From Vicugna vicugna (taxonomy: Eukaryota), in NCBI GenBank assembly GCA_013265495.1, contig MU057887.1, forward strand, positions 4,119,668 through 4,183,667: a stretch of 64,000 nt of DNA, given 5' to 3'. Shown piece by piece: positions 1 to 55,434 of the stretch. Below the pieces are notes generated by a model. The model worked only from the letters and a program-made list of their open reading frames with translations. It was not told where the DNA came from and did not search any database. Both the position numbers and the translations under genes were made by a program. The first letter of the stretch is position 1; every line of letters begins with the position of its first letter.

Positions 1-1602
1 CACATGGCCAATGGGGAGGTGCATCTCCATCCTCTCAAGGTCTTTGGATCCCAAACTTAACCAGGAGGCAGAGCCTGGGACAGGGACAGAATCAGGGCAG
101 CGTCCAGAAAGCTGGCCTCCAGCTTGAGGTCCACCTTAAGGCAGGGCCCCTTACATCCTTTACTGCCATCTGATACACTGGGCAGGGGGTGTTGGGAGGA
201 GCAGGTAGGCGAGATACCTGAGGATAAGCAGAGCCCAGGCTGGGAGCCAGGGGTGTGCCTTGGCCAGCCTGCTGCCTGAGTCAGGGAGCATCTGTGCCCC
301 AGAAGAAGAAACAAGCATGTGTTGTGGGGGGCCTGCCTCTGTCCCAGGAACTCCAGGCTCTTTTTCATGTCTGGGCCCTATCTGGCATCTGTCCCAAGAC
401 TGACTTACTCCTCAGCTTAAGTGAGAAGAAGATGCAGGAGACACGGCTTGTCCCTGGGAAACCAAGCACTGAGAGGAGGCCAGGCGTATGCACCCCCAGA
501 AGCATCTGCACACAGGCCTGGAGGGGCCCGAGTCCTGGCGAGGAGGGGTTTGGATGAGGGAAGGCCGAGAACTGAGATATCTGAGACGCCCAGGATGACT
601 CCCAGGCTTTCCACAGGGCCCAGTGATGGCAATGGGAGCCGGTGTGAGTGGCACCTGGCAGTCAAGACTTTCCAGAGGGCACAGGGGGAGGCCCAAGAGG
701 CCAGGCCAATGAGGAGGGAAAAACAACTTTTGGATTTTCTTTATTTCGTTCATTTTTTACTCTTGATATCTCTGCTGAACTCGGGGTAAGAAGGTCCAGA
801 GGCTGCTGGACGAGGGTGTGGGAGGCTCAGCCTTGGCCTCTCGGGCTCTGCTGTGGACCCTGGGAGGGAACAGTGCTAGCCTCCACTTCACACGTGTGGT
901 GACGGGAGGGCACAACTTCCTCAGCAGCCCATCCCTGTGCTGGGCAGGACCGATGCCCCTGACCCCTGCGCTCCCTCCTCAGGGAGACCAGCCCCCTCCT
1001 CTCCTGTTAGCTCACAGTGGAATGGTCTTCTCAGGTTTCTGGTAATTTCATCAGGGCTGCATCATGTTGCTGAAACTACAGATAACATCTTCCTGTGGGT
1101 AACTCTTCCCTGCCAGAGCCCCCTGAGGCTGGACCCAAGCTCAGAGGAGGGACACGGTGGGTGGGGGACAAGCTTGGTGGTGTGAGGTCTGTTAGGCAGA
1201 AGCCAGTTGGCTGGGATGCCCGAACAGTGTTGAGAAACACTGCCATTTGCCACTAGAACCTACGGAAAAAGAGAAGGGGCAGGAGCTTGGTGGGGGGCCT
1301 GAGCTCCTGGAGCTGCTGTCGACTGTGTTGTCTCCTGACACCTCCAGCGGGGGGCCTCCTGACAAACCCCCAAGCCCAGGCACAGACACAGAGACCCACC
1401 CCTCCCAGAACAGCAGAGCACTGCCCCAGCCCAGGTCCACCTTAACTGGGCAGCCCTCTGGGCGGGGCAGGGTGCGTCACTGATGCCATCTGCATGGAAA
1501 GAGCCCCGGTGGCGCCCAGGCCTGAATCAGGAGTGGTGCATGCAGAGCTCCCGGCCTCCAGTCTCTTGCCTGGCTCCTCACGCTGGATCTGCGGCCCAGA
1601 CC

Positions 1603-3333
1603 ATGATCCAGGGCGCCTCAGAGGCTGACGGCCCCAGCTGGGGCTGGGACGGGGACGGGGACGACGACTGGGATGGCGCCGTGCTGACCCTGCTGGCGCT
1701 GGCTGTGGTGGCCGCCACCGCACTGGCCTTGCACTGGTTTGGCTCTGGGCAGGACCAGGAGGCAGCAGGACCAGCGTCCACAGCCCCTCGGACCCAGACT
1801 TCTCAGGTGGGAGGAACTGGGCCAGCCCTGCCCCCAAAGTCCAAGGTCAGTGGTGGCATCAAGGGGCCCAGCTCAGGGCAGGGGAAGTCAGAGCCTCCAG
1901 GATGTGGCCAGGGGAGCCTGGCGGCAGCAGAGACACAAAATCAGGAACTCCTGGGAGGTAGAGGTCTGGCTGCCACAGCCGCACCTCCACCCAACACACG
2001 TGGTGAGGTGACCAGTGGAGGGGCCTTGGGACAGCAGCATGGTAATGCCACCCCGGAAGCCCCCCGAGGAAAAGGAAGGGAGCCTCACAGGCCAGGTGCT
2101 GCCCTCCTGGGTAGGAGCAAAGCACAGGGGGCATCTACACCCCTCCTGATACACTTCACCCCTCAGAGTCCTGGCAGAGAAGTAGAGGTGCAGGTGAAGG
2201 CAGGAGGCATCCGAGCCAAGTCACCAGCTCACCAGGCCCCAGTCCACACAGTGGAACAGGACACCAGGCCCTGGCAACAAGGTGTAGGGTCACCTGGCTC
2301 ACTGGGGAGGGGCCCGGGCAGCTGGCGGTGGCAGGTGGGCCACAGCTCAGGAGGCAGAGCCTGCCTGGGCACTGTGGTGAGCGTGTGGGATGCTGTGGAT
2401 GCAGCCGGTAGCCTCCCTGCAGGCTCCCAGGGGCTCCGTTTCCTCCGGGAGCTGCCCCCATCACACACTGCACAGACTGGGCCCCTGAAGGATGTCTTAG
2501 AGAGGGGGCGTGGGAAGAGCAGACCCCAGCCAGCCCCAGTCCTAGCTCTGGACTCAGAAGCCAAAGCTGGTGAGAGCAGGGAGGCTGGGACCCTGGCCCC
2601 CAGGGAGTCTCAGGGGTCCCCAGCCTCCATGAAATGCTGGCCCTGGGCACGGAGGGAGGTGGTCATGAGGAGCTTCAGCCAGGCCCCAGGCTCCATTGGC
2701 CCATCACCAGAGGGGCCACAGTGGGGACGCCCACTCTTGTCCCAAGGGCAGGGGACCACAGAGGCCTGCAACGTGGGAGAAGCTGGGGCTAATGGCTCTG
2801 GAGACGACACTGTCTTCAGTTCAGGGCCTGGAGGGACAAACAAGCGAGGAGGCCACAGCATCGAAGGGAGAAGATCCCTGCAAGGTCAGGTGGCTGGTGG
2901 TTCCGACAGAGCTAAGCTAGCTCCAGACATCCGCAGCTGCACCCCTTTCCGGAGCCCCTTAGTCTCGCCCCCTCCATGCATCTCTAAACCCCTCCCACCC
3001 TCAGCTTCCCCATCCACAGCACATCCCCACCAAGGTCTCTTAGCTGTATCCCCAACTCTTCTGACCTCGTCTCCTTCAGACTCTTTGCCCCTCAGAGTTA
3101 ACCAGAGTCCTGCAGAGGATGAAAATCTCAGAGCAGTGCCAGCCCCTCCCCCAACTGCAGCGCCCACTCCAGCCCCAGCCCCTCCCACAGGTGCAGCCTC
3201 TCCTCCAGCCCCAGCTGCAGCCCCTGCTCCTGCACCAGCCCCAGCTGCAGCCCCTCCCCCAGCCCCAGCTGCAGCCCCTCCCCCAGCCCCAGCCCCAGAA
3301 GGTACACAGTACTCGGGTCAGAAGAATGAGTAA
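1603..3333 (+). CDS. KLHDC7B: KLHDC7B long-isoform N-terminal part (hydrophobic anchor plus disordered Pro/Ala region), ending early at TAA 3331-3333 (576 aa)
   Basis: ATG at 1603 (accATGa) gives MIQGASEADGPSWGWDGDGDDDWDGAVLTLLALAVVAATALALHWFGSG, resembling the recalled N-terminus of long human KLHDC7B; motifs PLLIHFTP and SVWDAVD present. In-frame upstream ATGs at 1483 and 1540. Confidence 0.8.
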   Translation: MIQGASEADGPSWGWDGDGDDDWDGAVLTLLALAVVAATALALHWFGSGQDQEAAGPASTAPRTQTSQVGGTGPALPPKSKVSGGIKGPSSGQGKSEPPGCGQGSLAAAETQNQELLGGRGLAATAAPPPNTRGEVTSGGALGQQHGNATPEAPRGKGREPHRPGAALLGRSKAQGASTPLLIHFTPQSPGREVEVQVKAGGIRAKSPAHQAPVHTVEQDTRPWQQGVGSPGSLGRGPGSWRWQVGHSSGGRACLGTVVSVWDAVDAAGSLPAGSQGLRFLRELPPSHTAQTGPLKDVLERGRGKSRPQPAPVLALDSEAKAGESREAGTLAPRESQGSPASMKCWPWARREVVMRSFSQAPGSIGPSPEGPQWGRPLLSQGQGTTEACNVGEAGANGSGDDTVFSSGPGGTNKRGGHSIEGRRSLQGQVAGGSDRAKLAPDIRSCTPFRSPLVSPPPCISKPLPPSASPSTAHPHQGLLAVSPTLLTSSPSDSLPLRVNQSPAEDENLRAVPAPPPTAAPTPAPAPPTGAASPPAPAAAPAPAPAPAAAPPPAPAAAPPPAPAPEGTQYSGQKNE

Positions 3334-3385
3334 CAGCCCCAGCCCCAGCCCCAGCTCCAGCCCCAGCCACAGCCCCTGCACCTGC
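3140..3385 (+). repeat. Coding low-complexity repeat (ccagcc / ccagctgcagcccct units) encoding the Pro-Ala linker of KLHDC7B
   Basis: Directly visible tandem ccagcc-type units; translates to PAPAAAPPPAPA... Confidence 0.9.
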
Positions 3386-3479
3386 TGGTGGGTCAAAGCT
3401 AGCATCTCAGGAGCCCAGTGCTCTCTGCAAGGGCAACCAGGAGGGGCAGTTCTCAACTAGCTGGGGAAACCTTATTTCA

Positions 3480-5303
3480 ATGGTTCTTAGGAGTCACCCC
3501 TTCCCCAGGCAAGAGAGGCCCCAAAGGAGAGCCCCAAGGGCAGCTCTGGAGAGACCTAGAGATCCTAGCACTTCCACACCCTCTGAGAACAAAGAGTCTG
3601 ATTCTCCCCTTGAAGAGGCTGTCCACAGCTGTGAGGACAGGCCAGGCTCAGCCGCACTGGTCACAGGGCCAGGCACAGGGGGCCTGGCTGAGGTTGGAGG
3701 TCAACCACAGCAGAGCAGTGTGGAGACCAAGGAGGCTCCCACCACAGGCCCTCCCTCAGGCCCAAGAGGGGATAGAGCTGAGGAGGACTGTCCAGACTTG
3801 CTGCTGCCCAGAGCCACAATGCCCAGGGCCCCCTCATGGCCACCTGCACAGACCCAGGCTGGGCCTGTACCATCCCCTGCTACAAGGCCTGTCCCCCGGC
3901 CGTGGAAACGCAGCGTGTGCGAAATGTCCGAGAACTCTGAGCAGGAGGTCAGCCGGGTGGCCTCAGGGCAACACCAAGCACAAGCGCCGGTGGGGGGGCC
4001 CAGCCCAGCCGGCAGCAGAGAGGTCCTCGTGGAGAAGCAGGAGGAGGCCCAGAAACTCCTGGTGTTTCTGCAGAGGCCTGGGGGCTGGGGAGTGGTGGAG
4101 GGGCCCCAGAAGCCCAGGTCCTCCACAGGGGACCCAGCTTCCACCACGGCAGTGGCTCTGCCACGGTGGCGGGACCTGGGCAGCTGCCTGGATGTGTTGG
4201 CCTTCGCCCAGCAGCATGGGGCGCCCGGCCTGGCCCAGGAGACCTACGCCTTGATGAGTGACAATCTGCTGCACGTGCTGGGAGACCCGAGCCTCTACCG
4301 GCAGCTGAGTGGTGCTGACCGAGAGCGCATCCTGAGCCTTCGCACTGGCCGGGGCCAGGCTGTGCTGGGGGTCCTCGTGCTGCCCAGCCTCTACCAGGTG
4401 AGCCGCTCGGGACTCACAAGGCACCCTTGTGCTGCCGAGGCTCCTGCGGTGGGGCCTGTGCCCCCGCCTCCCCACACATACCTGCACGTGTTCCACCTCA
4501 GAGAGAACACCTGGCGGCCCCTGACCCAGGTTCCCCCAGAGGTCCCGCTTCGGGGCTGCGGTCTCTGCACCCTGCACAACTACCTGTTCTTGGCGGGGGG
4601 CATCCGTGGATCAGGCGCCAAGGCCGTCTGCTCCAACGAGGTCTTCTGCTACAACCCTCTGACCAACATCTGGAGCCAGGTGCGACCCATGCAGCAGGCC
4701 CGTGCCCAGCTCAAACTGGTGGCCCTGGACGGGCTGCTCTACGCCATTGGGGGCGAGTGCCTGTACAGCATGGAGTGCTACGACCCGCGCACAGACGCCT
4801 GGACTTCCCGCGCGCCCCTCCCCGCAGGCACCTTCCCAGTGGCTCATGAGGCTGTGGCCTGCCGTGGGGACATCTATGTCACTGGGGGCCATCTCTTCTA
4901 CCGCTTGCTCAGATACAGCCCCGCGAAGGATGTGTGGGATGAGTGCCCCTACAGTGCCAGCCACCGGCGGTCCAGTGACATGGTGGCCCTGGGGGGCTTC
5001 CTGTACCGCTTCGACCTGCTGCGGGGTGTGGGCGCTGCGGTGATGCGTTATAACACGGTGACGGGCTCCTGGAGCCGGGCTGCCTCTCTGCCCCTGCCCG
5101 ACCCGGCCCCACTTCGCTGCGCTGTGCTGGGCAACACCATCTACTGCCTCAACCACCAGGTCACGGCCACCTTCACAGTCTTTGAGGGGACTGCCCAGTT
5201 CCAGGCCAAGGAGCTACAGCCTTTTCCCCTGAGGACCAAAGGGGTCCTCTGCCCATTCATCCTGACTCTGCCCCCGGCAGACCCGCTGCAGACAGAGCTC
5301 TGA
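3480..5303 (+). CDS. KLHDC7B: Kelch domain-containing protein 7B, C-terminal/short form (607 aa, intronless)
   Basis: Starts MVLRSHPFPRQ; Kelch repeats with GG motifs (LFLAGG, LYAIGG, IYVTGG; YNPLTNIW, YDPRTDAW). This frame is open upstream to 3330 and encodes ...QEGQFSTSWGNLIS before the Met. Adjacent to SYCE3 as in human. Confidence 0.95.
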   Translation: MVLRSHPFPRQERPQRRAPRAALERPRDPSTSTPSENKESDSPLEEAVHSCEDRPGSAALVTGPGTGGLAEVGGQPQQSSVETKEAPTTGPPSGPRGDRAEEDCPDLLLPRATMPRAPSWPPAQTQAGPVPSPATRPVPRPWKRSVCEMSENSEQEVSRVASGQHQAQAPVGGPSPAGSREVLVEKQEEAQKLLVFLQRPGGWGVVEGPQKPRSSTGDPASTTAVALPRWRDLGSCLDVLAFAQQHGAPGLAQETYALMSDNLLHVLGDPSLYRQLSGADRERILSLRTGRGQAVLGVLVLPSLYQVSRSGLTRHPCAAEAPAVGPVPPPPHTYLHVFHLRENTWRPLTQVPPEVPLRGCGLCTLHNYLFLAGGIRGSGAKAVCSNEVFCYNPLTNIWSQVRPMQQARAQLKLVALDGLLYAIGGECLYSMECYDPRTDAWTSRAPLPAGTFPVAHEAVACRGDIYVTGGHLFYRLLRYSPAKDVWDECPYSASHRRSSDMVALGGFLYRFDLLRGVGAAVMRYNTVTGSWSRAASLPLPDPAPLRCAVLGNTIYCLNHQVTATFTVFEGTAQFQAKELQPFPLRTKGVLCPFILTLPPADPLQTEL

Positions 5304-6602: not shown

Positions 6603-6697
6603 GAGAAGTAAGTTCTGTGCCAAAGGCCATGCACTGGGGTCGCCGTCCCTCTGTGAAGCTTCTGTGCGCTGTGGTGCGGCTGGGTGGTGAGTGGGGG

Positions 6698-9600
6698 CTA
6701 CTGCTTGCGCTTGGTCTCACTGAGCAGCTCCTGCCAGTTCTTCTCCATCTCCTCCTTGCAGTTGAGGAAGGCGTCTTCCAGCCGCCGCATGGACTCCGCC
6801 AGCGTGGGGTTGGTGCGCATCACCACCATGTCGTAGGCCATCCACGTGGCCTGCACTGCAACAATCAGAGAGGCCCTGGTCAGGCCGCGGGGCGGCTGCA
6901 GCCCTGGGCCCCATGGAGGGCTGGGTGCCTCCAGTCGTGTCCAGGGTCCTGGGATCCAGAACCCCTGAATCGCCCAATTACTCTAAGGAGAGAAAGCTGG
7001 TAGGCCATGCGTTATACAGGCCTCAAAAACAAAAAACAAAAAACAACTCTATTAAAACTCCTCTACACAGAGCATTAATGACACCTCCTTAATCTCACAC
7101 AAGTCTCTACTTCACCAACACACAACACTACAAGGCTGAAGCCCAGACTGACAGTAAGTGTGAGGAAAAATTAGAGCAAACATACCTATCTGCAGCTCAC
7201 AATTGGTGGTTACAGGATGATCCCCCAAGAAGTCATAACACCCCCCCCCGCCCCGTGCACAGGTAGGGCTGACCACTCCCACTCCCGCGAGGCCCTGAGC
7301 CTCGGGCTACCTCATGCCGATTGGCCTGGGATGCCTGCCCACCTCCACCTGGGCACCTCTCTGCTTTCATTAAGGCCAGTCCAGGGACTCTTCCTGAGGA
7401 AGTTTGCTGTGTTCCACATTAGGCGTCCTTTGGTGCCCACCACTACACTGTGACCCACTTTCTCACTCATTCCCTTTGAGAAGAACTTGAGGGCAATGCT
7501 CCCTGGGCCTACAGGGGGACATGTGCTTCCTGTACAAATCCAGTGGTTGTGTGCAGAAGCCCCACCTCCACACCTTCCCTCCGCAGCTCCTGCGCCACTG
7601 GCATGGTTCCCCCTTTAGAACTGTGAAGAACGGGGTTGTCTCTCCGGGCAGTAAGTATATCTGCTTGAACTGCTTACGCCTGGCTGGCTACTCTGGGAAA
7701 CTATGTCCTTAAGGAAACTAAGCAAAAAAAGAGACAAAACGATCATTAATAAATGTACATGTATGTCTGCAGACAACTGAGGTCAGCAGCATGGCAGACT
7801 TGAAGTTCTACAGAAAGTGGCATCTGTTTGGTTAGAGAAAATTGTCAGAAAAGATCTGTGCCATACACCCCAACAGATACAGGGCACATGACTATACAGC
7901 CAGCACAAGAGTTCTCCAGTTTTTAGAAGCATGAGCGTCATCTGGAACACTCGTTAAAATGCAGACTGCTGGCCCCTCCCAGAACTCAAAGAGGTTCTTG
8001 TGTAGCAGGTTGGGAATGCTGCCCAGGAACCTGCATCTTAATAAGCATCCCGGGTAATGCTGCTGCAGGAAGCCTGCAGACCACCTGGATGGCAGGTGGA
8101 GCCCGGACCTGGAAGTGAGAGCACTGTGCTTCCCAGCTCCCCATCTGCTGGAATAAGTGGCTAAACTTACTAGCCTCAGTCTCCTCATACGTAAAGGACA
8201 GACAATGTCCTGATCTCACGGCTTTCTGTGAAGATTGAGCGGATGATATATGTAAACTGCCGTGCACATATTAGGTGCTCAGAAATAAGAAACTCTTACT
8301 AAAAAATAAATGAGGTATTCAGGGCAAGGAATTAGGGTGGGTTTAAAAAAAAACAAACAGCTCACAGAAATGAATGTCATATAGTCCGTCCTACACAGCA
8401 GCTGGAATTCTAGCCCTGAGTTTCCTTAGGCCAAAGCAGAGAAGGAAACATGCTTAGTTATACGACTCAGTGACCATAAAATAAAAACAAATCCATTGTT
8501 CCATTGTTTAAGACCCAAGAATTTTCCTATAGGCATAGCTTATGAGAGGTATGCAATATAGCTGAAAATGCCCTTGACAAATCCCTGCTCTAAATACAAG
8601 GAGACTCTTCTGTGTCTATAGTGTAACCACTGGTGAAAGAACCTGGTGGCACAGCAGCAAAGCACAGCTCAGAGAAGGCGGTTCAATGAGCAGCGAAACA
8701 CGGCACCAAGGCACAGCTCTCCCGTGACCTGATCCAAGGGAGAAAACCAGAATACACAGAATAGGACGGACGCATATTTAGAAAACTCTACAGAAATACA
8801 TGCTTCCTGAGGTTTTCGTTCATCTAGTGTTTACTGAGCACCTGCTCTGTGTTGGCATTTGCTAAGACAGCCCTGCCATACTGTACTACAGGATGGACAC
8901 ATCCTGCCCTCATGCAGTGTCTCTGCCAGCTGCAGTGGGAGGCGACAGATAATAAACACACAAGACGACTGCAGGTTGTGAACAGTGCTGTGAAGGAAAT
9001 AAGCAGTGTATGTTGTGACAGAGAAATGTGGTAGGAGAAGCCTTATTTTAGAGCAGGTGGCGAGGACAAGCCTTCTCAAAGGGCTTTAGGGAAGGCCTGC
9101 ACAGTAGCAAAGCCAAGGGCATAATCTCCAGAGGGACCTGAACAGCAGATATTCTGAGATGCTAATTAGGACTCACCCCACACACTCTGTGGCTTTACCT
9201 GCTGGGTAGGGCCAGGTCTGCACACAGAAAGAAATTTTAAAAAATGGTCAAGATGTGCACCTAGATGCCGGGTTCAGTAAAGGATGAAGATGAAGTGTTC
9301 CAAAAATCTGTATGGGAGAGCGGAGGACTATGGGATGCAATAAAGTGGATTTATTTTGAGCCTAAAAGGGGGAAGCAGAGAAAAAGGAATGAAACGAAGG
9401 CCAGCTGACCAGGGATAAAGAGATGAAGATAAGCCAGCCTGGAGTTTCCAGCCCACAGACAAACTCACATCACTTGCAAAACAGAATAATCAGCGTTGTA
9501 AAACGCAAGTGGTGACGTTCTATAGTCTCAAGTCTCGGGTCCCAGGTCCTTTCACAGAGGAGTTCTGCCAGACATTGAAAGAACAGTTAATTCTTATCTA

Positions 9601-26925: not shown

Positions 26926-27945
26926 AGATGGGGTGATGGGAGTGGGCTGAGGAGATGGGGTGATGGGAGTGGGCTGAGGAGATGGGGTGATGGGAGCGGG
27001 GTGAGGAGATGGGGGGATGGGAGTGGGGTGAGGAGATGGGGTGAGGAGATGGGGGGAGGGGGGCGGGGGGAGGGGGTGGGGGGAGGGGGGGGGGGGGGGG
27101 GGAGGGGGGGGGGGGGGGGGGAGGGGGGGGGGGGGGGGGGAGGGGGGGGGGGGGGGGGGAGGGGGGGGGGTGAGGAGAGGGGGTGAGGAGATGGGGTGAT
27201 GGGAGCGGGGTGAGGAGATGTGGGTGAGGGGAGTGGGGTGAGGAGATGGGGTGAGGAGATGGGGTGATGGGAGCGGGGTGAGGAGATGTGGGTGAGGGGA
27301 GTGGGGTGAGGAGATGGGGGGAGGGGAGTAGGGTGAGGGGAGCGAGGTGAGGAGATGGGGTAATGGGAGTGGGGTGAGGAGATGGGGGGAGGGGAGTAGG
27401 GTGAGGGGAGCGAGGTGAGGAGATGGGGTAATGGGAGTGGGGTGAGGAGATGGGGGGAGGGGAGTAGGGTGAGGGGAGCGAGGTGAGGAGATGGGGTAAT
27501 GGGAGTGGGGTGAGGAGATGGGGGGAGGGGAGTAGGGTGAGGGGAGCGAGGTGAGGAGATGGGGTAATGGGAGTGGGGTGAGGAGATGGGGGGAGGGGAG
27601 TAGGGTGAGGGGAGCGAGGTGAGGAGATGGGGTAATGGGAGTGGGGTGAGGAGATGGGGGGAGGGGAGTAGGGTGAGGGGAGCGAGGTGAGGAGATGGGG
27701 TAATGGGAGTGGGGTGAGGAGATGGGGGGAGGGGAGTAGGGTGAGGGGAGCGAGGTGAGGAGATGGGGTAATGGGAGTGGGGTGAGGAGATGGGGGTGAG
27801 AGGAGTGGGGTGAGGAGATGGCGTGAGGAGATGGGGTGATGAGAGCGGGGTGAGGGGAGAGGCGTGAGGAAATGGGGTGAGGAGATGGGGATGAGGGGAC
27901 TGGGGTGAGGAGATGGAGTGAGGAGATGGGGGTGAGGACATGGGG
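26926..27945 (+). repeat. G-rich minisatellite of 13/14-nt monomers with a 68-nt higher-order unit (7 copies) and a near poly-G core
   Basis: The marker 'taatggg' recurs at 27361, 27429, 27497, 27565, 27633, 27701, 27769 (period 68). Monomers ggggtgaggagat and ggggtgatgggagt. Confidence 0.97.
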
Positions 27946-51182: not shown

Positions 51183-52081
51183 AATTAACAGACCTAAAGG
51201 GATGGAGAAACTGACAGCTACGGGGACTTTAACACCCACTGACATCAATGGATAGATCACCTATACAGAAAGTCCATAAGGAAAGAGTGGTCTTAAATGA
51301 AACATTGGACGAGATGGATTTGATAGATTTGTACAGAACATTCCATTCAAATGCAGTAGAATATACATTCTTCTCAAGTACATATGTAATTTTCTCAAGG
51401 ATAGACCATATGTTGAGACACAAAACAAGTCTCAATAAATTCAAGAAGCTTGAAATAATATCAAGCAATTTTCCAATCCAATGGTATGAAACTAGAAGTC
51501 AACTACAAGAAGAAAGCTGGAAAAATCTCAAATATGTGGAGACTGAATAATATGCTACTGAACAACTATTGGATCAATAAAAAAAAATCTGAAGACAAAT
51601 GAAAATGAAAATACAACATACCAAAATCTGTGGGGACAGCAAAAGTGTAGTTTATGGCAATACAGGCCCACCTCAAGATGTGAGAAAAATCTCAAATAAA
51701 CAATCTAACCTTGCACTTAGATGAATGAGCAAAAGAGCAAACAGAGCCCAAAGTCAGGAGAAGGAAGGAAATAATAAAGATCAGAGCAGAAACAAACGAA
51801 ACAGAGACTAAGAAGACAATAGAAGAGATGAATGAAAATAAGAGGTGGCTCTTTGAAAAGATAAATAAAATTAACAAAAATTTAGCTACATTCACTAAGA
51901 AGAAAAGAGACAAAACCAATAAACTCAGAAATGAAAAAGGAGAAATAATGGATACCTCAGAAAAACAAAGGATTTCAAGAGAATATTATGAATATATACC
52001 CCAACAAACTGGACAACCTAGAAGAAGTTACTGCAATCATATAACCTTCTGAGACTGAATCATGGAGAAATAGAAAATCTG

Positions 52082-55000
52082 CAATGGATCAATGAGGAAA
52101 TCAAAGCTGAAATTAAAAAATACCTTGAGACAAATGATAATGAAAGCACAACCACTCAAAACCTATGGGACACAGCAAAGGCAGTGCTAAGAGGGAAGTT
52201 TATAGCGATACAGGCCTTCCTCAAAAAAGAACAATCTCAAATAAACAAGTTAACCCACCACCTGAATCAATTAGAAAAAGAAGAACAAAAAGCCCCAAAA
52301 AGCAGCAGAAGGAAGGAAATAATAAAGATCAGAGAGGAATTAAATACAATAGAGATTAACAAGACCATAGAAAAAATCAACCAAACCAAAAGCTGGTTTT
52401 TTGAAAAAGTAAATAAAATCGACAAACCTCTGGCCAAACTCACAAAGAAGAAAAAAGAGAGAGCACAAATTAGCAAAATAAGAAAGGAAAATGGAGAAAT
52501 TACAACAAACAAAATAGAAATACAGAATATCATACGAGAATATTATGAAAAACTATATGGAACCAAACTGGATAACCTAGAGGAGATGGACAAGTTTCTG
52601 GAAACATACTGTCCACCAAAACTGAATCAAGAAGAAACTGAACACTTGAACAATCCGATCACTAGAAAGGAAATAGAAATAGCAATTAAAAACCTCCCTA
52701 CAAATAAAAGTCCAGGACCGGACGGCTTCACCGGGGAATTCTACCAAACATACAAAGAAGAACTCATACCAGTCCTTCTCAAACTCTTCCAGACGATTGA
52801 AAAGGAGGGAATACTCCCAAACTCATTCTATGAAGCCACCATCACCCTGATACCAAAACCAGGCAAAGACACTACAAAAAAAGAGAATTATAGGCCAATA
52901 TCACTGATGAACATAGACGCCAAAATCCTCACCAAAATTTTAGCAAATAGAATCCAACAACACATAAAAAAGATTATACATCATGACCAAGTGGGGTTCA
53001 TCCCAGGGACACAAGGCTGGTTCAACATACGCAAATCAATCAATGTAATACATCACATCAACAAGAGAAAGGACAAAAACCACATGATCATCTCAATCGA
53101 TGCAGAAAAAGCATTTGATAAAATTCAACACCCATTTATGATAAAAACTCTCGCCAAAGTGGGTATAGAGGGAACATATCTCAACATAATAAAAGCTATA
53201 TATGACAAACCTATAGCCAGCATAGTTCTCAACGGTGAAAAACTCAAAAGCTTCCCACTAAAATCTGGGACAAGACAAGGATGCCCACTATCACCACTCC
53301 TATTCAATATAGTCCTGGAAGTCCTAGCCACAGCAATCAGGCAAGAGAAAGAAATAAAAGGGATCCAAATTGGAAAAGAAGAGGTAAAAGTGTCATTATA
53401 TGCTGACGACATGTTACTATATATAGAAAACCCTAAAAGGTCCACAAAAAAGCTACTAGAGCTGATCGAAGAATTCAGCAAGGTAGCAGGTTACAAAATT
53501 AATGTTCAAAAATCAGTTGCCTTTCTTTACACTAACGATAAATCAACAGAAAAAGAAAGTAAAGAAACAATCCCCTTTAAAATAGCACCCAAAGTAATAA
53601 AATATCTGGGAATAAATCTAACCAAGGAGGTGAAAGAATTATACACAGAAAACTATAAACCATTGATGAAGGAAATTAAAGAAGACTTTAAAAAATGGAA
53701 AGATATTCCATGCTCTTGGATTGGAAGAATCAATATTGTTAAAATGGTCACACTGCCCAAGGCAATCTACAGATTTAATGCAATCCCTATCCAATTACCC
53801 AGGACATATTTCACAGAACTAGAACAAATCATAATAAAATTTATATGGAACCATCAAAGACCTAGAATTGCTAAAGCATTACTGAAGAGAAAGAAAGAGG
53901 CTGGAGGAATAACTCTCCCAGACTTCAGACAATACTATAGAGCTACAGTCATCAAGACAGCATGGTATTGGTACCAAAACAGACATATAGACCAATGGAA
54001 CAGAATAGAGAGCCCAGAAATGAACCCACAAACTTTTGGTCAACTCATCTTCGACAAAGGAGGCAAGAATATACAATGGAATAAAGACAGTCTCTTCAGC
54101 AAATGGTGTTGGGAAAACTGGACAGCAGCATGTAAAACAATGAAGCTAGAACACACCCTTACACCATATACAAAAATCAACTCAAAATGGATTAAAGACT
54201 TAAACATAAGACAAGATACAATAAACCTCCTAGAGGAAAACATAGGCAAAACATTATCTGACATACATTTCAAAAATTTTCTCCTAGAAGAAATAAAAGC
54301 AAGAATAAACAAATGGGACCTAATGAAACTTACAAGCTTCTGCAGAGCAAAGGAAACCAGAAATAAAACAAGAAGAAAACCTACGGAATGGGAGAAAATT
54401 TTTGCAAGTGAAACCGACAAAGGCTTGATCTCCAAAATATATAAGCAGCTCATACGACTCAATAAGAAAAAAATAAACAACCCAATCCAAAAATGGGCAG
54501 AAGACCTAAACAAGCAATTCTCCAAGGAAGACATACAAATGATCAAAAAGCACATGAAAAAATGTTCAATATCACTAATTATCAGAGAAATGCAAATCAA
54601 AACTACAATGAGGTATCACCTCACACCAGTCAGAATGGCCGTCATTCAAAAATCCAAAAATGACAAATGCTGGAGAGGCTGTGGAGAAAGGGGAACCCTC
54701 CTACACTGCTGGTGGGAATGCAGTTTGGTGCAGCCACTATGGAAAACAGTGTGGAGATTCCTCAAAAGACTAGGAATAGACTTACCATATGACCCAGGAA
54801 TCCCACTCCTGGGCTTGTATCCAGAAGGAAATCTACTTCAGGATGACACCTGCACCCCAATGTTCATAGCAGCACTATTTACAATAGCCAAAACATGGAA
54901 ACAACCTAAATGTCCATCAACAGGTGACTGGATAAAGAAGATGTGGTATATTTATACAATGGAATACTACTCAGCCATAAAAACCGACAACATAATGCCA

Positions 55001-55434
55001 TTTGCAGCAACATGGATGCTCCTAGAGAATGTCATTCTAAGTGAAGTAAGCCAGAAAGAGAAAGAAAAATACCATATGAGATCGCTCATATGTGGAATCT
55101 AAAAAACAAAAACAAACAAACAAACAAAAACAAAGCATAAATACAGGACAGAAATAGACTCATGGACAGAGAATACAGACTTGTGGTTACTGGTGGCGGG
55201 GGTAGAGTGTGGGAAGGGATAGACTGGGATTTCAAAATTGTAGAATAGATAAACAAGATTACACTTTATAGCACAGGGAAATATACACAAAATGTTATGA
55301 TAAATCACAGAGAAAAAAATGTGACAATGAGTATGTATATGTCCATGAATGACTGAAAAATTGTGCTGAACACTGGAATTTGGCACAACACTGTAAAATG
55401 ATTATGAATCAATAAAAAATGTAAAAAAAAAAAA
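52082..55434 (+). mobile_element. Young 5'-truncated L1 with an uninterrupted ORF2 frame (52082-55102), 3'UTR and poly(A)
   Basis: [19 protein letters not shown]... through RT motifs ([27 protein letters not shown]) and [18 protein letters not shown] to the stop at 55102. Endonuclease domain absent. AATAAA at 55411 then an A tail. Confidence 0.97.

What the first reader, a model, noticed from the sequence alone, without database searches (positions are those of the whole stretch)
3299..3336. A 35-nt non-repeat segment breaks the long KLHDC7B ORF; removing it restores the frame
Seen: inside the (ccagcc)n Pro-Ala repeat sits aaggtacacagtactcgggtcagaagaatgagtaa (3299-3333), flanked both sides by cagccccagccccag. 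It carries TAA in the upstream frame and TGA in the downstream frame. Deleting 35 nt joins ATG 1603 to stop 5303 in one 1221-aa ORF, and the downstream frame still encodes a conserved-looking QEGQFSTSWGNLIS before Met 3480. The offset window 3302-3336 is also 35 nt and reads GAAG|GTACAC...TAACAG|, i.e. GT-AG boundaries that also restore the frame. Known: human KLHDC7B has a long single-exon form and a short Kelch form starting at MVLRSH, and the gene is linked to hearing loss. Inference: this is either a lineage- or allele-specific knockout of the long isoform, an unusually small new intron (below typical vertebrate minimum, no polypyrimidine tract, so less likely), or an assembly artefact in a GC-rich repeat.
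Basis: partly seen in the sequence, partly recalled or inferred. Interest (0 to 1): 0.8.

Follow-up and report, generated by a model that had tools for sequence, protein, structure and literature searches.

The report
Likely assembly glitch in camelid KLHDC7B
The 35 bases that seem to break the long form of a hearing gene in this llama/alpaca-type genome occur at a different locus in every related animal I checked, so they are most likely an assembly error in a GC-rich repeat, not a natural knockout or a new intron.

Summary
The 35-nt segment, both stops and the 1221-aa rejoin are real in the window. The gene is KLHDC7B of a South American camelid; three Camelus species have an unbroken 1208-aa form. 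In 4 of 4 DNA runs laid on the junction (4 studies), window 3299-3349 sits inside an unbroken contig of another locus, with 705-1371 unrelated bases before it. A fifth run shows the same foreign flank. A simulation shows that a true second copy in KLHDC7B would cut that contig at the insert's start. Three runs and an alpaca RefSeq model also carry a repeat unit that the window lacks. A 35-nt frame-restoring GT..AG arises in 435 of 2000 shuffles, so it is no sign of an intron. Best reading (0.8): a misjoin through a shared (CAGCCC)n stretch where the true Pro-Ala repeat was lost. I could not identify the window's own reads, so a private templated insertion stays open (0.16). No splicing test was possible. 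The scan had not noted this on other DNA.

The parts
1603..3298 (+). 5' half of the long KLHDC7B ORF (in-frame ATG also at 1483); residues 26-47 (about 1678-1743) are a hydrophobic stretch at the place where human and mouse have a predicted transmembrane helix
   Evidence: 96% identical to Camelus P0001 over 571 aligned columns; 14-16 differences in 532 aa to three Camelus proteins and no other frame break; TM position from PMC12820229 passages
3139..3298 (+). Left part of the GC-rich Pro-Ala repeat, built of 6-, 24-, 30- and 54-nt units; likely cut short in this assembly
   Evidence: TRF; a further unit differing at 3228 and 3231 is on contigs of 3 of 3 DNA runs and in the tail of alpaca model P0122, but not in the window
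3299..3333 (+). 35-nt foreign segment, native to another locus of the genome; holds TGA (3327-3329) and TAA (3331-3333)
   Evidence: Inside unbroken contigs of 1437, 770, 4112 and 1436 nt with unrelated upstream DNA in X1, X8, X2, X14; same loose end in X5
3334..3364 (+). (CAGCCC)n stretch shared by KLHDC7B and the other locus; the likely crossing point of the misjoin
   Evidence: 3334-3349 shown identical in the other locus. 3350-3364 is inferred: that contig ends 14-15 letters past 3349 in 3 of 4 runs, and the KLHDC7B downstream contig fits the window from 3335 (X1, X5) or 3339 (X14) if read as collinear
3334..3376 (+). Right part of the Pro-Ala repeat (hexamer, 7.2 copies)
   Evidence: TRF
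3480..5303 (+). Short KLHDC7B ORF, 607 aa, Kelch repeats, intact
   Evidence: 2 differences from alpaca RefSeq P0089, 21-23 from Camelus; Pfam Kelch_1 E 6.5e-29

Best explanation
The 35 nt are native to another locus of the camelid genome and were most likely placed in KLHDC7B by an assembly error, so the long reading frame is probably intact in the animal. Shown: the 35-mer and the next 16 nt lie in an unbroken contig of another locus in four related DNA runs, and the window lacks a repeat unit that related runs carry. Inferred mechanism: the path through the 76% GC Pro-Ala repeat was lost; the 3' half of the gene was extended leftwards through about 31 nt of (CAGCCC)n that it shares with the other locus, picked up 35 nt of that locus, and was closed bluntly against the 5' half at 3298. 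A model allele fitted to run X14 puts 63 nt of repeat in place of the 35 nt and reads through as 1242 aa; that length is a model, and alleles appear to differ between animals.
For: (1): in 4 of 4 runs (X1, X8, X2, X14; 4 studies, 3 organism labels) 3299-3349 matches exactly inside one contig with 1371, 705, 1371 and 1371 unrelated letters before it; X5 shows the same flank. Flanks of X1, X14, X5 differ from the window by 0, 1 and 2 letters over about 1060 nt (table 8); X2 and X8 hold 0.93 and 0.91 of the words. (2) (k=31 simulation; the other locus was a stand-in with lengths chosen by me): a real copy, homozygous or heterozygous, cuts the source contig so that at most 1 letter precedes 3299; the insert-free model leaves it whole and ends it 14 letters past 3349, as in X14 and X8. 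(3) X8 holds a 41-nt contig that fits 3264-3298 exactly and goes on with 6 letters that do not fit the insert (too few to count as a bridge). (4) Contigs of 82, 102 and 76 nt in X1, X14, X5 carry a unit differing at 3228 and 3231; their 25-letter unaligned start in X1 and X14 equals the distance from the predicted contig start 3264 to the unit start 3289. Alpaca RefSeq model P0122 reads this unit and the window does not. (5) Three Camelus proteins are unbroken; one Camelus-like RNA contig spans 2838-3900 in 989 nt, 74 fewer than the window, matching 35 + 39. (6) The 5' half is no more diverged from Camelus than the 3' half (14-16 of 532 against 21-23 of 607 aa), so there is no sign of long decay. 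(7) False indels in GC-rich exons are a documented cause of false short introns and false gene loss (PMC9516821, passages).
Against: I do not know whether any run is the window's own sample, so a private allele is untested. Logan contigs drop rare variants and the tool leaves some records out. No South American camelid long-form protein is on record: 0 of 8 members of the camelid cluster, and alpaca has only split models. That is weakened by the same split in dromedary and grey whale, which also have long models. The 82-, 102- and 76-nt contigs are placed by inference; the X1 and X14 ones did not appear, where they should fit 3264-3298 (nor did the exact 49-nt contig, so that listing is not exhaustive). 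The model gives 3 differences for the X1 contig where 2 were seen. No single contig of a South American camelid run was seen to span the whole repeat. Where the X2 contig goes for its last 2690 nt is unknown. The left joint has no shared letters with the source flank, so word overlap does not explain it; a closed gap is assumed. Only 5 of the 14 DNA-type holders listed were laid.
Confidence: 0.8

Rival explanations
1. A real but private or rare allele: a break in the Pro-Ala repeat was repaired by copying 35 nt from the other locus, primed on the shared (CAGCCC)n stretch, with loss of about 60 nt of repeat. This would end the long, membrane-anchored form after 576 aa and leave the 607-aa form.
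For: Distant template, local deletion, homology at one joint and no poly(A) fit class 2 templated sequence insertions (PMC5110952, passages). The rest of the gene has no other frame break. The window's own reads were not identified, and contigs lose rare alleles.
Against: Not supported in any of 5 DNA runs laid. The same anatomy is what a graph misjoin produces, and it falls where contigs fragment into 33-102-nt pieces in every DNA run laid. The inserts tabulated in that paper's experiments were 73-414 bp.
Confidence: 0.16
2. A fixed, lineage-wide loss of the long isoform in South American camelids.
For: Alpaca RefSeq lists only a 607-aa model plus separate N-terminal models; no long form from this lineage was found among 86 hits.
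Against: 5 of 5 related DNA runs place the 35-mer at another locus behind one upstream flank; split models also occur in dromedary and grey whale; 0 of 159 fetched proteins hold any 6-residue reading of the insert; no excess divergence of the 5' half.
Confidence: 0.02
3. A real insert that is spliced out as a new ultra-short intron (3302-3336, or to a later in-frame AG up to 71 nt), so that the long protein is still made.
For: AAG|GT donor-like start and in-frame CAG acceptors every 6 nt. Human introns of 37-65 nt have been reported (PMC4463651, abstract).
Against: It needs the insert to be real. The GT..AG fit occurs in 435 of 2000 shuffles. 35 nt is below the 37-nt lower end and the 65-nt threshold given in that abstract. 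There is no U-rich tract (sequence). The donor-like motif belongs to the source locus. The gene is single-exon in mouse.
Confidence: 0.02

Closest known systems
False gene losses and false micro-introns from GC-rich, repetitive exons (Kim et al. 2022, PMC9516821; passages read)
   Same: An apparent frameshift with stops in a GC-rich repeat of a coding exon, repairable on paper by a tiny intron, and not supported by independent read data.
   Different: The PCDH17 example there is a small false insertion leading to 1-2 bp false introns; here 35 nt come from an identifiable other locus and likely replace a longer stretch of repeat.
Class 2 templated sequence insertion polymorphisms (PMC5110952; passages read)
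   Same: A short patch copied from a distant locus, local deletion, homology at a joint, no poly(A).
   Different: Those are real germline alleles; this junction was not supported in any run laid, and it is shorter than the 73-414 bp experimental inserts listed.
Mammalian KLHDC7B, long and short forms from one exon (PMC12820229; passages read)
   Same: Two in-frame starts, N-terminal hydrophobic stretch at residues 26-47, Pro/Ala-rich linker of variable length, C-terminal Kelch repeats.
   Different: Nothing shown beyond a longer Pro-Ala repeat than in Camelus, whose true length is not resolved.
Human ultra-short introns, 37-65 nt (PMC4463651; abstract only)
   Same: Short GT..AG stretch with weak splice signals.
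   Different: Those were chosen for conservation between species and 15 had evidence of splicing; this one is absent from Camelus and has no RNA support.

Membership tests
KLHDC7B orthologue | C-terminal Kelch repeats with best hits to named KLHDC7B proteins | tested here: met
   Pfam Kelch_1; 97% to dromedary KLHDC7B; 2 differences from alpaca
KLHDC7B orthologue | Continuous long ORF from the upstream Met | tested here: inconclusive
   Broken in the window; open in a model fitted to X14; no spanning contig seen in a South American camelid run
Assembly-born false gene break | Lies in GC-rich or repetitive sequence | tested here: met
   76% GC tandem repeat
Assembly-born false gene break | Independent data from related animals show another arrangement | tested here: met
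   4 of 4 runs, a fifth; simulation
Assembly-born false gene break | Not supported by reads of the same individual | not testable with these tools
   The window's own sample is not identified and only contigs were served
Class 2 templated insertion (TSIP) | Insert copied from a distant locus | tested here: met
Class 2 templated insertion (TSIP) | Both junctions present in germline DNA | tested here: inconclusive
   Source contig unbroken in 4 of 4 runs, which speaks against carriers among them; the assembled animal is untested
Class 1 TSIP / L1-mediated insertion | Poly(A) tail and TTTT/A target site | tested here: not met
   Neither is in the sequence; criteria
Class 1 TSIP / L1-mediated insertion | Target-site duplication | tested here: inconclusive
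   15-nt identical flanks exist, but they are hexamer repeat and the right copy is also part of the source locus
Spliceosomal (U2-type) intron | GT..AG ends beyond chance | tested here: not met
   435 of 2000 shuffles do as well
Spliceosomal (U2-type) intron | Joined reads in RNA of a carrier | not tested

The most novel reading that the evidence does not exclude
The assembled animal carries a real templated insertion that knocks out only the long, membrane-anchored KLHDC7B isoform and spares the short Kelch isoform. It would be a natural isoform-specific null for a hair-cell gene; both mouse knockouts described in PMC12820229 hit sequence common to the two forms, so such an animal would test whether the long form is needed for hearing.
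Probability: 0.16. Interest if true: 0.5.

Novelty: not a real feature. Interest (0 to 1): 0.08.

Why it matters
If the best reading holds it is only a warning: this assembly should not be used to claim loss of long KLHDC7B in camelids, and split database models of this gene are not evidence of loss. If the insert is real in the sequenced animal, it would separate the two isoforms of an age-related hearing-loss gene in a living mammal.

Tried and rejected
No whole genome is held for this window, so the source locus could not be read or named. No 12-nt piece of the insert recurs in the window, and an exact scan of JGI metagenome contigs found 0 matches. No listed piece crosses 3298|3299; lack of cover alone proves nothing and is not counted as evidence. 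In one search the tool skipped 3323-3390 and left 24 pieces unlisted. The top word share of 0.93 is below the 0.97 expected if only the 30 junction words were missing, so it does not discriminate. Contig depth in the repeat is low in X1 (4-12 against 28-30) but not in X14 (10-17 against 14-15); I do not lean on it. Alpaca's short-only RefSeq model was rejected as evidence of a break because dromedary and grey whale are split too. An L1-type insertion was rejected (no poly(A), GC-rich target). A paper search for KLHDC7B with whale, dolphin, cetacean, alpaca or camel (any 2 of 6 terms) listed 20 of 14,366 papers, none holding the gene name; that search was loose and does not show absence from print. 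The KLHDC7B search listed 30 of 298 papers, none on camelids by title or abstract start. No supplements were read. Splice-site strength was not scored. Four look-ups in earlier findings gave no note on this gene.

Full report
Observation. 3299-3333 is a 43% GC island in a 72-76% GC Pro-Ala repeat, with TGA at 3327 and TAA at 3331, and removing 35 nt gives a 1221-aa ORF from ATG 1603. The repair is not specific: every 3n+2 deletion covering both stops works, the GT at 3302 pairs in frame with a CAG every 6 nt, and 435 of 2000 shuffles of the insert give a 35-nt frame-restoring GT..AG.

Gene and organism. The 607-aa ORF has Kelch repeats and differs at 2 residues from alpaca KLHDC7B and at 21-23 from Camelus, so the window is from a South American camelid. 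Dromedary, Bactrian and wild camel each have a 1208-aa long form with a plain Pro-Ala linker. Mouse and human have one exon with two starts and a predicted transmembrane helix at residues 26-47 of the long form (PMC12820229, 12 of 16 passages seen). The window's 5' half shows 14-16 differences in 532 aa against 21-23 in 607 aa for the 3' half, and tblastn finds only this one break. Nothing suggests a long-dead region.

Where the 35-mer belongs. A search of public runs with 2700-3900 listed 24 rows, 14 of them non-RNA holders with 0.91-0.93 of the words. I laid 5 of those 14 and 1 of 6 RNA rows. In one search (X1, X14, X5, X15) the DNA flanks match the window at 0-2 differences, and each of the three DNA runs has a contig that starts to fit at 3299 after at least 255 unrelated letters. 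In one search (3255-3349; X1, X8, X2, X14) all four runs hold 3299-3349 exactly inside one contig of 1437, 770, 4112 or 1436 nt, with 1371, 705, 1371 and 1371 letters before it and 15, 14, 2690 and 14 after it. So the 35-mer, followed by at least 16 nt of the same hexamer repeat, is native to another locus. I simulated 31-letter contigs with a stand-in for that locus. A real KLHDC7B copy, homozygous or heterozygous, cuts the source contig at 3298-3299 and yields a 59-64-nt junction piece. The insert-free case leaves the contig whole and ends it 14 letters past 3349. The data match the second case. The 1371 letters and the sharing of 3334-3364 were inputs of mine, so the test is the unbroken contig, not those numbers. 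Contig building can prune rare branches, so a low-frequency allele is not excluded.

What the window lacks. X1, X14 and X5 each hold a short contig with a repeat unit differing at 3228 and 3231. The window has no such unit, but the tail of alpaca RefSeq model P0122 reads it, as does a dromedary model. Both the window and my model predict contigs of 565, 35 and 49 nt and a next one starting at 3264. The first three are seen in X14, X8 has a 41-nt contig starting at 3264 that leaves the window after 3298, and the X1 and X14 contigs have the 25 unaligned first letters expected if the extra unit follows 3289-3298. A model fitted to X14 replaces the 35 nt by 63 nt and is open for 1242 aa. Against it: it gives 3 differences for the X1 contig where 2 were seen, so alleles probably differ in the repeat; the 82- and 102-nt contigs did not reappear; and no contig of a South American camelid run was seen to span the repeat. 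The RNA run X15 carries Camelus substitutions and spans the region in one contig 74 nt shorter than the window. It confirms the camel state and says nothing about splicing here.

Mechanism. Shown: foreign origin of the 35 nt, identity of the next 16 nt between the two loci, a missing repeat unit. Inferred: sharing extends to about 31 nt (3334-3364), since the source contig ends at 3363-3364 in three runs and the KLHDC7B downstream contig begins at 3335 or 3339. An assembler or gap filler that lost the GC-rich path would extend the 3' half leftwards into the other locus, and the piece would then be closed against the 5' half, which fits the blunt left joint. I give this 0.8. The same anatomy could come from real break repair with a distant template (class 2 TSIP; PMC5110952, passages). 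That cannot be excluded without the animal's own reads, and I give it 0.16. A fixed lineage knockout (0.02) and a spliced micro-intron (0.02) are poorly supported. Reported human ultra-short introns run from 37 to 65 nt (PMC4463651, abstract; PMC5435141, abstract, also argues that short introns exist).

Database models. No long form from this lineage is on record. RefSeq also splits the gene into an N-terminal model and a short model in dromedary (P0158, P0088) and lists an N-terminal model in grey whale (P0123), each of which has a long model elsewhere (P0001, P0102). The split is therefore no evidence of a break.

Comparison and verdict. The closest known class is false gene loss from errors in GC-rich exons, which also produce false tiny introns (PMC9516821, 12 of 37 passages seen). 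The feature is real in the assembly and probably not in the animal. Interest 0.08; novel case 0.16 probable, worth 0.5 if true.

Noticed in passing
Source-locus flank listed as the loose end before 3299, plus window 3299-3307: The last 15 flank letters plus the first 3 of the insert form an 18-nt stretch with a pyrimidine-rich CAG before it and GT after it, and one phase reads as Gly-X-Y. It may be a microexon of another gene, perhaps a collagen, which would explain the donor-like motif. Read by eye from 30 letters; untested.
   Followed up: no
window 3139-3376: The Pro-Ala repeat seems to vary between animals: the upstream contig ends at 3264 in X14 but at 3261 in X5, and the extra unit appears to differ at the letter matching 3256.
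   Followed up: partly
Proteins P0095-P0106 (cluster 2; 15 of 21 members listed): All 8 dolphin, porpoise, beluga and river-dolphin species listed have only short or N-terminal KLHDC7B models, while four baleen whales and a beaked whale have 1166-1187-aa forms. Split models also occur where a long form exists, so this is only a lead for a DNA-level check in echolocating whales.
   Followed up: partly
Proteins: The N-terminal half of KLHDC7B is filed as a separate gene under names such as 'collagen alpha-2(I) chain-like', 'spidroin-2-like' or 'calcium-binding protein P-like' in several mammals.
   Followed up: partly
window 26926-27937: A 27-nt G-rich tandem array (37.5 copies) whose middle, 27051-27170, decays into near-pure G with regularly spaced A; it looks like a poor consensus in another GC-rich repeat of this assembly.
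   Followed up: no
window 52022-55102 (+): An open frame of 1026 aa with a reverse-transcriptase domain (Pfam RVT_1, E 4e-49), likely part of an L1 ORF2 (L1 label recalled, not tested).
   Followed up: partly
window 6605-7003: The opposite strand of this ORF resembles an exon of SYCE3, the known neighbour of KLHDC7B (recalled, from no call).
   Followed up: no
window 1483-1602: In-frame ATG upstream of the conserved start at 1603; alpaca model P0122 starts 21 residues before that start.
   Followed up: no
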